NCBI GenBank assembly: GCA_964016885.1
Contig: OZ024742.1
Location: 109,368,001 to 109,432,000 of the forward strand
Length of the DNA: 64,000 nucleotides
Direction: 5' to 3'
From: Eledone cirrhosa
Lineage: Eukaryota
Part shown: positions 15,571 to 58,237 of the stretch, piece by piece
Numbering within the stretch: the stretch's first letter is position 1
How the letters are laid out: each line of letters starts with the position of its first letter
Notes under the pieces: model-generated
Databases searched by the model: none
Told to the model about the DNA's origin: nothing
Seen by the model: the letters and a program-made list of their open reading frames with translations, nothing else
Position numbers and translations under genes: made by a program

Positions 15571-16914
15571 TACCAAATAGACATAGGATTTCTCGTGTTA
15601 CTGAATTCATAGAACTATTTCGACTTCAACTTGAAAATATTTAAACTCATTTACGTTGCTAAATCCTTTGAGGAAGAAATGAATGCTATATAATCTTATT
15701 TCCCTCTCGTATAATACTATACTTATCTACCTCTGTATAGAATCAATATTTGACAATAGCCACATTGATGAGAAGGCGATTGATATAGGATATTGAAAAA
15801 AAAGAAGATTGTACAGAATTGTAAATTTTCAAGAATTTAATATTAGTCCTTTCATATCTTTATAGAGGCAATTGATATGTGTTAACATCGTCCTGCTAGG
15901 TCAAAGATTCCTGCAATTATCTCGAGAGGAAAGTCACAGCGAGGCCTAAAACATTTATTTCTATTTGTCTTTATTTCGTACTCAATAAAAATAATAAAAA
16001 AACAGAGAAGAATGTAGAGTAATGATATAGAAATTTTACATGATAAGAATGGAAAACAGGTCAATAAATTCCTAAGCTCTGTCAGTCAAGTAAATACTTC
16101 CAACCGAAATTAGAAATCTGAGAAACAGAAGTCTCCTCCGGTCGTTTCCTGTTAAAGTTTACATCTCATCAATTTTCCGTTGCACAGTAGCACACTCTAT
16201 TGACGAATCCTTTTATTATTTTATTTTATTTATTCTATTTCATTTTAAACCAGATCCGATCATTTTTCACTGGCAAGAATAAGAATAATTTAAAGCCTGA
16301 CTGCAGCATTTCCATCAGCAGTGGTGTAAACGACAATATTTTAACAGTAGCTAGAATAGACGACAGTAATATCAGCAAATGACACTTCAACAGCTGTGAA
16401 TGAAGCAAACAGACGACATTCACTTGTAACAGAGAAGAAGCAGCTTAAGAGGCGGACATTTTCCTTTTCTTTCTCCAGTGAGAAATCGATTTTTGTATCA
16501 GATTCTTTGTTGATACGTTTACACTTTTACTTGCATTCTTTATTCACATTTCTTTTACGGTTTCCTCTCGCTATTTTATTCAAAGATTTTCTTACTGACT
16601 GGAACAGGAAACAGTGAGTGTATTGTGGCTCTGTGTTTACCGAAGTTGTTAGTCCACTTGAAGAGGGCCTATTTATAAAACAACTCGGAATATTCACAGA
16701 TATTTTAAAATATCGCTTGATTAATTTTTTTTTAAACCTAAAAAATATTCAGAACTTGTGTGATTAGCTATCAATGAGAGTCCGGTTTCAGTACTATACA
16801 TACATTCATACATACATACATTCATATATACATACATACATACATAAATACATACATACATACATACATACATACATACATACATACATACATACATACA
16901 TACATACATACATA

Positions 16915-17203
16915 CATTAATGGAACAGTAAAAATATGTAAAACATTCCAAACATTTTGCATCTAATAACTGCATATACACATGTACAGATACAAAGCAT
17001 ATACACATGCACACATACAATTCAAAACATCCACATCCACACATACAATAACATCCATATCTACACATGCATGCATGCAGACATACATACATATCTACCT
17101 AGTTGATGTTGTGTAAATTCCAATGAGAGAGTCATGTGTCTATGTTAGAAACCAACTCTCTCTCTATTGGGAAAAAATTTGTGAAATTATAAAACCAGAA
17201 GAA
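16915..17203 (+). mobile_element. R4/Dong family B 3' end within (CATA)n
   Basis: Encodes INGTVKICKTFQTFCI* then the 3' UTR, as at 54258-54538. Confidence 0.9.
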
Positions 17204-17282
17204 CATACAATCATATGTATGTATCTAGATACATTTATACATACATAAATAGATACACACATACATGCATACATACATATAT

Positions 17283-54538: not shown

Positions 54539-54580
54539 CATACATACATACATACATACATACATACATACATACATACA

Positions 54581-56389
54581 TCGTGGCTGCCAACTCGTTT
54601 TCGAGTACGGCCACTATCTTATATCCATGTAGGAGAACCACTACCGATGCGCTGAACGAGTGTGACTTTTTAGTCCAGCCAGCGACTTTAAAACTCTGGT
54701 ACAAACACTACACTTGTGACAATTATTGACACATAGTGCTGGGCCCATGGTACCATGTGACCACAAGTGCAGAGAGATGTCCAGATATAAAGCAATGCCT
54801 GTGCCGTGAAGCTTTTATGGTGATTTTGGATGGCCATTGACTCTTAAGAGCTCCAGATATAAAGCAATGCCTGTGCCGTGAAGCTTTTATGGTGATTTTG
54901 GATGGCCATTGACTCTTAAGAGCTCCTTTGCCCTTTGACAGGTTTTGTTTTTAGTCCTGCAGGATGTCCAAAGTCACCCTCCTCACCAAGAAACCTTGGT
55001 GGAGTTGCCAGTTTAGTCGCCAACGACCCGACCATGAGACGGGTTGTACTGGGATACATGTTACCAGTAGCACCAACTGGTGACCAACATACATACATAC
55101 ATATATACATACATGGTGGCTGCCAACTCGTTTTCGAGTACGGCCACTACTTTATATCCATGTAGGAGGACCCCTACCGATGCGCTGAACGAGTGTGACT
55201 TTTCAGTCCGGCCAGCGACTTGAAAACTTTGGTACAAACACTACACATGTGACAATTATTGACACATAGTGCTGGGCCCATGGTACCATGTGACGACAAG
55301 TGCAGAGAGATCTCCAGATATAAAGCAATGCCTGTGCCGTGAAGTTTTTATAGTGAGCAAAGGCACTGCACAAAGCCAGTCCCACTCTCTTAACCAAGAT
55401 GATATTTACCAAAAAGAAGAACAAGTCAACATCATTGGATATCATCAGGGTTGCAGGTGTGATATCAGAGTTTTCCTTCTCCTAGAATTCTGCCTTGACA
55501 AAGGCTAAGGGGTCATCTCTCCCGGTGATTTTGGATGGCCATTGACTCTTAAGAGCTCCTTTGCCCTTTGACAGGTTTTGTTTTTAGTCCTGCAGGATGT
55601 CCAAAGTCACCCTCCTCACCAAGAAACCTTGGTGGGGTTGCCAGTTTAGTCGCCAACGACCCGACCATGGGACAGGTTGTACTGGGATACATGTTACCAG
55701 TAGCACCAACTGGTGACCTGACATAATATATGCATACATACATACATACATACATACATACATACATACATACATACATACATACATACATACATACATA
55801 CATACATACATGGTTGTGGCTGCCAACTCGTTTTCGAGTACGGCCACTACTTTATATCCATGTAGGAGAACCCCTACCGAAGCGCTGAACGAGTGTGACT
55901 TTTTAGTCCATCCAGCGACTTGAAAACTCTGGTACAAACACTACACTTGTGACAATTATTGACACATAGTGCTGGGCCTATGGTACAATGTGAGGACAAG
56001 TGCAGAGAGATCTCCAGATATAAAGCAATGCCTGTGCCATGAAGCTTTTATAGTGAGCAAAGGCACTGCACAAAGCCAGTCCCACTCTCTTAACCAAGAT
56101 GATATTTACCAAAAAGAAGAACAAGTCAACATCATTGGATACCATCAGGGTTGCAGGTGTTATATCAGAGTTTTCCTTCTCCTAGAATTCTGCCTTGACA
56201 AAGGCTAAGGGATCATCTCTCCCGGTGATTTTGGATGGCCATTGACTCTTAAGAGCTCCTGTGCCCTTTGACAGGTTTTGTTATAAGTCACCCTCCTCAC
56301 CAAGAAACCTTGGTGGGGTTGCCAGTTTAGTCGCCAACGACCCGACCATGAGACAGGTTGTACTGGGATACATGTTACCAGTAGCACCA
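54581..56389 (-). mobile_element. Three tandem copies of the 608-bp RTE derivative (54581-55085 rearranged, 55114-55721, 55811-56389)
   Basis: Copies separated only by (CATA)n; the first has an internal deletion plus a ~73-bp tandem duplication. Confidence 0.88.
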
Positions 56390-58237
56390 TACATACATAC
56401 ATACATACATACATACATACATACATACATACATACATACATACATACATACATACATACATACATACATACATACATACATACATATGTGTGTGTGTTT
56501 GTGTGTAACGTCTACCAGGGTTTGTTACCGGCAGTTAGTAGCAACAATTGAGTGATTGACTAACAAATGGAAACATCGTTTCCTTGGTTCGATCTGAAGA
56601 TCAGCGTCTTTTTGCCTTTCCTTTCCATTTTAGTAAAAACCAAAATGAATTTTATCCAACTAACAACAGAGCCTAGTAGATCCTAGCATCGCTAGACACC
56701 AACGCCTCCAGTCATCAACACCAGCCCCAACCAACACCAGCCCCAACCAAATCCCACCCCAACTCTGCCCAAATAATCAATTCCTCACGGACAGCCACTT
56801 AATGTCTGTCATAAAGCAGGATTAGACCGATGTCAACGCTAGAACATTGTCTTACTGTTTTTAAGGCCTTGTTGATTATTAAACAAGTTCTGTCATATTG
56901 CTTTTTATATTTTCATATGTACTTATGTATGTATGTATGTATGTATGTTCGTGTGTATGATTATACACACTCCCTACATATGTATATGCATTTATATATG
57001 TATATATTTGTGTGTGTGTGTGTGTGTGTGTGTATGTGTGTGTGTGTGTGTGTGTGTGTGTGTGTGTGTGTGTGTGTGTGTGTGTGTGTGTGTGTGTGTG
57101 TGTGTGTGTGTGTGTCTGTGTGTGTGTGTGTAAATGTGGATGCGTGTATCTATGCATCAATGTATATACATAGGTGTAGTATGCATACTGACTCATCGAA
57201 TAAATAAAATAGAATATATATGCATATACATATTCACAGACACACACGCACACCCAACCGCATGCACACGCACACATACACATACATTTATGACTGTTTT
57301 TATAAAGTATTTTTTTGTCTTATTATGTTTTTAACCAAGGTCATGTAGTGCATTAGTTTTATCTGAAACATGGCGGTAATAATCTGCGTCTAATTAATTT
57401 TGTACATGCAAGCATATGTGTGTGTATGTATGTGTGTGTGCGTGTGGTGCGGATGATGGCTGTATGGCTATCAACTTGCTCTCGTGTATGACCAGCATTT
57501 GTTTTAGGCCAATATATATATGTGTGTGCGTGTTTATGAGTGTGCATAAATATATATATATATATATATATATATATATATATATATATATATATATATA
57601 TATATATATATATATATATAAAATTATATATAAATATATAAGAAGAAGAAACAGGGGCTGTGTAGTTGGTGGATAAGGTGTACTTATAAATAAGAGGAAA
57701 GCAAGAACGGGAGAAAATTTCCCTTGATCAGTTGTCCGCTGGGGGTCATGGATATTTCTACGCAATAATATATATACATATATATATATATATATATGTG
57801 TGTGTGTGTGTGTGTGTGTGTGTGTGTGTGTGTGTGTGTGTGTGTGTGTGTGCGCGTGTGTGTGCGTGTGTGTGTGTGTGTATGTGTGTGTATCCATACG
57901 TACATAAGAATGAACTAACATAACATACACATATATAAATGCATATACGTATATATAAATATATATATACATGCATTAGCCTGCAAAGTTAATATTTCTT
58001 TGCGTGTATAGATCTGTGCATGCATAATCACAACAGACATACAAGAAGATGTACACGCACGAACACAGACACACATTCACAGATCTGTATATATATATGT
58101 GTGCGTGTGTGTGTGTGAGAGTGGGGGGGTGCGTGCATGAGTGCGTGGTGTGTGTGTGTGTATGTGTGTGTGTGTGTATGTGTGTGTGTGTGTGTGTGTG
58201 TGTGTGTGTGTGTGTGTGTGTGTGTGTGTGTGTGTGT

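What the first reader, a model, noticed from the sequence alone, without database searches (positions are those of the whole stretch)
16795..56490. Shared (CATA)n niche: RLE retrotransposons and RTE derivatives nest in one microsatellite in opposite orientations
Seen: every visible 3' end of R4/Dong families A and B (1860, 2178, 17203, 18490, 50600, 54538) and their 5' junctions (1945, 16915, 17283, 19808, 50533, 51435) lie in CATA repeats, always on the CATA strand. All six non-autonomous RTE copies lie in the same tracts on the opposite strand, with (ATGT)n tails. The pattern occurs in two independent clusters (16.8-22 kb and 50.5-56.5 kb). Known: Dong elements target (TAA)n and RTE elements make short-repeat tails. 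Inference: the RLE families are (CATA)n sequence-specific, and the RTE tails keep generating their target, giving a self-expanding nest.
Basis: partly seen in the sequence, partly recalled or inferred. Interest (0 to 1): 0.75.

Follow-up and report, generated by a model that had tools for sequence, protein, structure and literature searches.

The report
Two retrotransposon clades share CATA repeats
Two unrelated kinds of jumping gene sit in the same four-letter repeat (CATA) facing opposite ways, likely because each one cuts a different strand of a repeat that was already there; for the Dong/R4 kind this would be a new landing site, and a distant relative in unrelated DNA sits in the same repeat.

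Summary
Two R4/Dong-type RLE families (A, B; 51% alike) always read (CATA)n on their sense strand. 55 of 66 5'-truncated top copies abut CATA at varied truncation points (background 1.6%), so CATA is a target and not their tail. RTE elements read (TATG)n; 97 of 100 neighbouring R4-RTE pairs are opposite.

The claim that RTE tails generate the target is not supported. RTE 5' ends also sit in the tracts. Head-to-head pairs outnumber tail-to-tail pairs (61 to 36). The RTE 3' repeat varies with the site and shows 10-12 bp duplications. A 45%-identical RLE relative from a metagenome contig has CATA on both sides.

A and B lie in a well-supported branch apart from (TAA)n-flanked Dong-like elements; other members of that branch are flanked by (CTTA)n. 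Best reading: co-tenants of a pre-existing repeat, each nicking the opposite strand (inferred). No paper found in seven searches describes a CATA target; Repbase could not be checked. This scan noted the same system before in other windows of this genome.

The parts
1645..1860 (+). old 3'UTR fragment of RLE family A (83%); 3' end in CATA, 5' junction not CATA
1861..1945 (.). (CATA)n tract between two A fragments
1946..2177 (+). 3'UTR fragment of family A, CATA at both ends
16796..16917 (.). (CATA)n tract, left edge of nest 1
16912..17202 (+). 5'-truncated family A (ORF end and 3'UTR)
17283..18490 (+). 5'-truncated young family B copy (thumb, zinc knuckle, RLE, 3'UTR), 100% identical to an intact copy
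18515..19030 (-). non-autonomous RTE derivative, variant family; its 3' flank is not an (ATGT)n run
19094..19699 (-). non-autonomous RTE derivative (RTE 5'UTR-like part plus zinc-finger remnant and 3' end)
19700..19807 (.). (CATA)n tract between an RTE 5' end and an A 5' end, so the tail of neither
19808..22414 (+). 5' part of family A with its true 5' end; frameshifted ORF
22416..23486 (+). 3' part of an autonomous APE-RT RTE family, fused to A by microhomology; ends in a TATG tract (23487-23665)
44485..48300 (-). old Dong-like family C with an AAT/AAC 3' flank (internal control, not part of the nest; limits approximate)
50463..50532 (.). (CATA)n tract, left edge of nest 2
50533..50599 (+). 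67-bp 3' end of family A
50672..51277 (-). non-autonomous RTE derivative, full length
51278..51437 (.). (CATA)n tract between an RTE 5' end and a truncated A 5' end
51438..54537 (+). 5'-truncated family A, RT to 3' end, frameshifted
54583..55085 (-). non-autonomous RTE derivative with internal deletion and duplication
55115..55720 (-). non-autonomous RTE derivative, full length
55816..56389 (-). non-autonomous RTE derivative
56388..56487 (.). (CATA)25 tract at the 5' side of the last RTE derivative, right edge of nest 2

Best explanation
Two R4/Dong-type RLE retrotransposon families and an unrelated RTE family with its short derivatives sit in the same (CATA)n/(TATG)n repeats on opposite strands, likely because each nicks a different strand of a repeat that pre-exists the insertion. 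Shown: strand rule, both ends in the repeat, a fixed 3' register (A and B: ...AA|CATAC; RTE: ...CAGCCAYC|ATRT), and 10-12 bp target duplications for RTE derivatives. Inferred for A and B: the RLE protein recognises CATA repeats and nicks the TATG strand, and the RNA's last A pairs with the primer's T. This specificity would be a trait of a separate R4 branch whose members use CATA or CTTA. Inferred for RTE: the APE endonuclease cuts TpA steps in alternating purine-pyrimidine repeats, and only a primer ending ...AT-3' pairs with the RNA end ...CCAU. That happens on the CATA strand or in (TA)n, which would explain both the strand bias and the (TA)n sites. Each insertion leaves repeat on both sides, so the site stays usable and nests build up.
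For: 5' junctions of top genomic hits: A 25 of 32 truncated and 7 of 7 full-length; B 30 of 34 and 6 of 6; background 1.6%. Non-redundant 3' ends: A 55 of 68 CATA and 0 TATG; B 44 of 54 and 0; RTE derivative 77 of 121 TATG, 0 CATA, 18 TA-only; autonomous RTE 31 of 49 TATG and 0 CATA; background 0.4%. Neighbour pairs: R4-RTE 97 opposite and 3 same; R4-R4 27 same and 1 opposite; RTE-RTE 52 same and 0 opposite. The 4 exceptions abut inverted element pieces. Unselected long tracts: 13 of 23 have an element end within 120 nt (background 0.5%) and all follow the strand rule. Control: Dong-like family C has AAY repeats in 25 of 30 copies and CATA in 0 of 30. Metagenome relatives in the same branch: L299 has CATA at both ends, L298 has CTTA at both ends, L303 at the 3' end and L297 at the 5' end; none of 22 outer relatives was labelled CATA or CTTA, and 15 were AAT. 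Intact B ORF has RT, a CCHC knuckle and a PD-type RLE aligning to R2. The RTE has APE plus RT.
Against: No biochemistry: nick sites and strands are inferred from junctions. 7 of 32 truncated A copies scored without CATA at the 5' end (one, L048, is a script miss), and B copy L116 has TATG upstream. Young B copies have longer pure tracts at the 5' side (39 against 11, p=9e-5). One RTE derivative inside A's 3'UTR has about 84 nt of pure repeat at its 5' junction where empty paralogues have about 3 units. Both suggest that part of the tract is made at or after insertion. Empty alleles could not be seen. Target duplications for A and B were inconclusive (17 of 69 against 14% in mismatched controls). 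Loci were chosen around these families, which enriches nests in the pair counts. In three of seven branch relatives (L300, L302, L304) the flank is short or unclear.
Confidence: 0.75

Rival explanations
1. Builder model: A and B need only a short CATA seed (2-4 units), and the long tracts are made during 5' junction formation by slippage of second-strand synthesis. The elements would then manufacture most of their own niche. This is compatible with sequence specificity and differs on where the long tracts come from.
For: 5' pure run exceeds 3' run in 39 of 50 B copies that have a tract, medians 55 against 23 nt. The sentinel L008/L231 has about 84 nt where empty sites have about 3 units. Some 5' junctions show re-priming mosaics of element pieces and CATA (L027, L119, L121, L138).
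Against: No asymmetry for A (23 against 18) or the RTE derivative (35 against 34). Tail-to-tail gaps are also long, median 66 nt against 80 nt head-to-head. 10 of 23 long tracts have no recognised element. Only one sentinel was found.
Confidence: 0.13
2. One reading: RTE RNAs carry (AUGU)n tails that seed new tracts, which the RLE families then colonise.
For: RTE 3' ends are followed by TATG repeats in most copies. RTE elements are described as progenitors of microsatellites in Lepidoptera (PMC2887409, abstract). 36 tail-to-tail pairs exist.
Against: RTE 5' junctions are also in TATG (21 of 39 derivatives with a run of 12 nt or more; 17 of 34 autonomous copies, an undercount). Head-to-head pairs exceed tail-to-tail pairs, p=0.014. 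The 3' flank is site-specific and duplicated. The RLE relative L299 has the target in other DNA.
Confidence: 0.07
3. Passive model: insertion is unspecific, and copies end up in CATA tracts through selection, recombination between tracts or assembly artefact.
For: Some arrays are tandem amplifications (L065/L079, L044). One deletion-type fusion lies in the window.
Against: Copies 99.5-100% identical already obey the rule, with a single-base 3' register (C in 39 of 39 B copies) and varied 5' truncation points. Selection cannot give a strand rule. Family C in the same genome uses another repeat.
Confidence: 0.05

Closest known systems
Dong (Bombyx mori), DongAg, DongBg, ostracod Dong1/2; R4 clade
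   Same: Single ORF with RT, CCHC knuckle and RLE, and no N-terminal zinc finger. Inserts into a microsatellite. Dong-R4 LINEs are abundant and recently active in Octopus vulgaris (PMC13282606, passages).
   Different: The published target is (TAA)n (PMC3812793 and PMC7998251, passages); here it is (CATA)n, with (CTTA)n in relatives. A and B form a separate branch from TAA-flanked elements, including family C of the same genome.
Waldo (WaldoAg1/2, WaldoFs1; R1 clade)
   Same: Targets ACAY microsatellites, which include ACAT = CATA (PMC3812793, passage).
   Different: An APE-type element of insects. Here the same repeat is reached by an RLE element, which would be convergence.
RTE/Bov-B LINEs and their SINEs (Tn-TA insertion signature)
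   Same: APE plus RT single ORF, target duplications, and a short 3' repeat that matches the first target bases (PMC6007223, Discussion read).
   Different: Described as having a loose signature. Here they are concentrated in AT[AG]T repeats with a strand rule, and both ends lie in the repeat.
Togen (NeSL-related, (TG)n-specific) and microsatellite-specific HERO families
   Same: RLE elements that are microsatellite-specific (PMC4640811, passages).
   Different: Other clades and other repeats; not compared by sequence here.

Membership tests
RLE-type non-LTR retrotransposon | single ORF with non-LTR RT | tested here: met
   1174-codon open frame in 6 of 20 extended B loci (one has 1175); RVT_1 E=1e-24
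RLE-type non-LTR retrotransposon | C-terminal CCHC knuckle and PD..D/E..K endonuclease | tested here: met
   profile aligns to R2 over positions 384-1153, including CRLC..H..C and the PD motif; model matches R2 structures best, E=7e-33
R4/Dong clade | no N-terminal zinc fingers (unlike R2) | tested here: met
   no zinc-finger Pfam hit at the N-terminus of B; helical N-terminal domain. P0002 lacks A's N-terminus, so A rests on the alignment.
R4/Dong clade | diverged N-terminal SANT/Myb-like domain (PMC7998251) | tested here: inconclusive
   three-helix domain shared with TAA-flanked relatives; fold search best Z 5.7, no Myb row listed
R4/Dong clade | groups with named R4, Dong and Rex6 in an RT tree | not testable with these tools
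   no named R4, Dong or Rex6 sequence was returned; the tree shows only that the next relatives are TAA-flanked and insect RLE elements
Dong in the strict sense | (TAA)n target | tested here: not met
   A and B flanks are CATA; family C meets it
R4/Dong clade | HDV-like ribozyme at the 5' end (PMC3774820) | tested here: inconclusive
   Rfam scan gave no ribozyme match, only low-complexity hits
RTE clade | single ORF with APE and RT, short 3' repeat, target duplications | tested here: met
   Exo_endo_phos plus RVT_1 in one frame; (CAY)1-2 end; 10-12 bp duplications in derivatives
RTE clade | groups with named RTE/Bov-B in an RT tree | not tested
   clade label rests on domain layout and recall
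non-autonomous RTE derivative | 5'UTR-like part plus 3' end of an RTE, ORF deleted | tested here: met
   68% match to the autonomous 5'UTR (E=1e-18), zinc-finger remnant (E=6e-5) and 87% match at the 3' end; the exact autonomous partner was not identified

The most novel reading that the evidence does not exclude
An undescribed, widespread branch of R4-clade retrotransposons has switched from (TAA)n to four-letter C(A/T)TA repeats. In this genome it shares that target strand-wise with an RTE family, and the young family extends the repeat at its own 5' junction, so the elements build the microsatellites they land in. Intact, near-identical copies with CATA, CTTA and TAA targets would make a natural series for finding what sets RLE target specificity.
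Probability: 0.3. Interest if true: 0.72.

Novelty: new variant of a known kind. Interest (0 to 1): 0.52.

Why it matters
How RLE retrotransposons change target is an open question, and it bears on using R2-type proteins for site-specific gene insertion. Here is a young family with intact open frames and a target different from Dong's, with relatives on CTTA and TAA, so domain swaps can test what reads the repeat. It also shows that two unrelated endonucleases can split one repeat by strand, which explains polarised nests. It warns that a 3' microsatellite next to an RTE need not be a tail. Microsatellite targeting itself is known, so this extends a known kind.

Tried and rejected
Empty alleles: contigs of four runs laid on a young B locus skipped the repeats and showed no informative joint.

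Sentinel searches: a pattern for B inserted in A's 3'UTR found 0 matches. The pattern for the RTE derivative found 3, one informative. A scan of 196 copies for paralogous empty sites gave only that one true case; the rest were self-matches or other nests.

Target duplications for A and B: 17 of 69 against 14% in controls, inconclusive. Rfam found no ribozyme. The Myb fold search was inconclusive. The Atlas and cluster look-ups gave no useful names or taxa. The prokaryote collection gave 3 distant, probably contaminant loci.

Trees: the careful search did not finish (quick tree, SH-aLRT only) and the family C row was only 119 aa, so C's place comes. Both trees are midpoint-rooted; the RTE outgroup dropped out.

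Rejected: CATA as the RLE's own tail (it is at truncated 5' ends); RTE tails as the source of the target; general 5' tract growth for all families (seen only in B). One search's asymmetry test used unequal slack and is replaced.
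Full report
1. What is in the window. The window comes from a 3.0-Gb animal genome. It is probably an octopod: the only named close homologue of family B is from Argonauta hians at 64%. Self-comparison and mapping to intact genomic copies give two nests, 16.8-23.7 kb and 50.5-56.5 kb, plus a small one at 1.6-2.2 kb. RLE families A and B lie on the + strand and six short RTE derivatives on the - strand. 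Three tracts (19700-19807, 51278-51437, 56388-56487) lie at 5' ends only, so they are nobody's tail.

2. What the elements are. Six of 20 extended B loci hold an open frame of 1174-1175 codons. It has RT, a CCHC knuckle and a PD-type endonuclease that align to R2 proteins, and its model matches R2 structures best. No N-terminal zinc finger was found; this layout is that of R4/Dong (PMC7998251, passages). A and B are 51% identical over RT-RLE. The autonomous RTE has APE, RT and C-terminal C2H2 fingers in one frame. The 600-bp derivative joins an RTE 5'UTR-like part to a zinc-finger remnant and an RTE-like 3' end. First-look candidate counts (the tool scores only the best and calls its counts lower bounds): A 2959, B 334, derivative 2281, RTE 1899. 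B's best copies are 99-100% identical, so it is very young.

3. Is CATA a target or a tail for A and B? I took the 40 best hits of each family and read their ends (one A 5' end lay outside its locus). A CATA run of 8 nt or more lay within 30 nt of the 5' junction in 25 of 32 truncated A copies and 7 of 7 full-length copies; for B, 30 of 34 and 6 of 6. Truncation points are spread along the elements. The same test is met by 162 of 10,400 random positions. Of the four B misses, three have CATA slightly further up and one has TATG. The 3' register is fixed...AA|CATAC. Family C, an older Dong-like element of the same window, ends in AAY repeats in 25 of 30 copies and in CATA in none.

4. Strand rule. 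Among non-redundant 3' ends in all fetched loci, A (55 of 68) and B (44 of 54) are followed by CATA and never by TATG. The derivative (77 of 121) and the autonomous RTE (31 of 49) are followed by TATG and never by CATA. Across a shared tract, R4-RTE neighbours are opposite in 97 of 100 cases, and same-class neighbours are parallel in 79 of 80. The four exceptions abut inverted pieces. These loci were chosen around the families, so I also took the first long tracts that a pattern search listed (235,399 overlapping 48-nt matches in all). 13 of 23 tracts (11 of 18 sites) have an element end within 120 nt, against 0.5% of random positions, and all obey the rule.

5. Do RTE tails make the target? 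The evidence says no. In 39 top derivative copies (of 42 hits; two belong to one tandem array already counted and one was not examined separately) the 3' flank reads AT[G/A]T with period four. The third base is A in 17 copies, where the site is (TA)n-like. In 8 of 21 copies with impure flanks an exact 10-12 bp stretch is repeated on both sides. TATG runs of 12 nt or more are at the 5' side in 21 copies and at the 3' side in 12. A tail origin predicts 3'-3' contacts with R4, but 5'-5' contacts are commoner, 61 to 36. The RTE's own end is a short CAY repeat. The RTE is less strict than A and B: it also uses (TA)n, although (TA)n is about 150 times more abundant in 200 kb of random DNA (7470 against 48 bp).

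6. Relatives elsewhere. A metagenome scan kept 80 of 369 loci; I read the ends of 30 loci (29 of these and one genome contig) and put 29 in a tree (quick IQ-TREE, midpoint root). A, B and seven metagenome loci fall in one branch (SH-aLRT 100, stem 0.74). In it L299 (45% identity) has CATA at both ends in the same register. L298 has CTTA at both ends, L303 at the 3' end and L297 at the 5' end. L300, L302 and L304 are short or unclear. Of 22 loci outside the branch, 15 have AAT as first 3' repeat and none was labelled CATA or CTTA. So four-letter targeting looks like a lineage trait that does not depend on this genome's RTE.

7. Mechanism. Shown: strands, registers and RTE duplications. Inferred from standard target-primed reverse transcription: the primer strand is the one complementary to the element's sense strand, so A and B prime from the TATG strand and RTE from the CATA strand. 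For RTE, pairing of an RNA end ...CCAU with a primer ...AT-3' would select the CATA strand and (TA)n. This matches the proposal that 3' repeats help choose or prime the site (PMC6007223, Discussion). For A and B, protein recognition is the likely cause, by analogy with Dong and R2; which domain reads the repeat is untested (inconclusive). Whether tracts also grow at insertion is open. In favour: the 5' excess in B (39 against 11) and one sentinel. Against: no excess in A or the derivative, long tail-to-tail gaps, and 10 of 23 long tracts without a recognised element.

8. Comparison with print. Passages of PMC3812793 list microsatellite targets: Waldo ACAY, Mino AC, Kibi TC, Koshi TTC, Dong TAA. 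PMC7998251 (passages) gives (TAA)n for Dong in most insects, molluscs and cnidarians. PMC4640811 (passages) adds Togen (TG)n and HERO. PMC13282606 and PMC9115989 (passages) report active RTE and Dong-R4 in octopuses, with no target described in the passages seen. PMC2887409 and PMC13295347 were seen as abstracts, and PMC3774820 as passages. Seven searches showed no CATA- or CTTA-targeting R4 element. Repbase, subscription papers (for example Kojima and Fujiwara 2004, not read) and supplements were not checked, and they may hold such a family.

9. Earlier notes of this scan, consulted after my tests, report the same system from other windows of this genome. They agree with my reading and are not independent support.

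10. Verdict. The feature is real. It is a new target variant of a known kind, with a partly wrong first explanation. Interest 0.52.

Noticed in passing
window 29426-42105: About 603 copies of a 21-bp unit, with an open frame of 3100 codons on the - strand (32871-42173, Gly-Gly-Gly-Thr-Gly-Asp-Leu repeats).
   Followed up: no
window 44250-44484 and loci L201-L230: 15 of 30 family C copies are followed within 110 nt by the end of a SINE-like repeat across the (TAA)n tract (about 1% expected), a possible parallel nest in (TAA)n.
   Followed up: partly
window 22405-22420: Family A is fused to an RTE through about 8 nt of microhomology: a deletion or a template switch.
   Followed up: partly
window 54320-54430: Family A's 3'UTR holds degenerate CATA-like repeats, and three RTE derivatives elsewhere end inside that site.
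   Followed up: partly
L133:4843-5692, run X1: A run coded as organism A holds family B at 846 of 850 identical letters; close kin, transfer or contamination not told apart.
   Followed up: no
L237-L252: The autonomous RTE carries internal (TG)n, (TTA)n and poly-T stretches in its UTRs that vary between copies.
   Followed up: no
window 6794-7755, 13550-14611, 62150-64000: Several near-perfect inverted repeats bounded by (TA)n, MITE-like.
   Followed up: no
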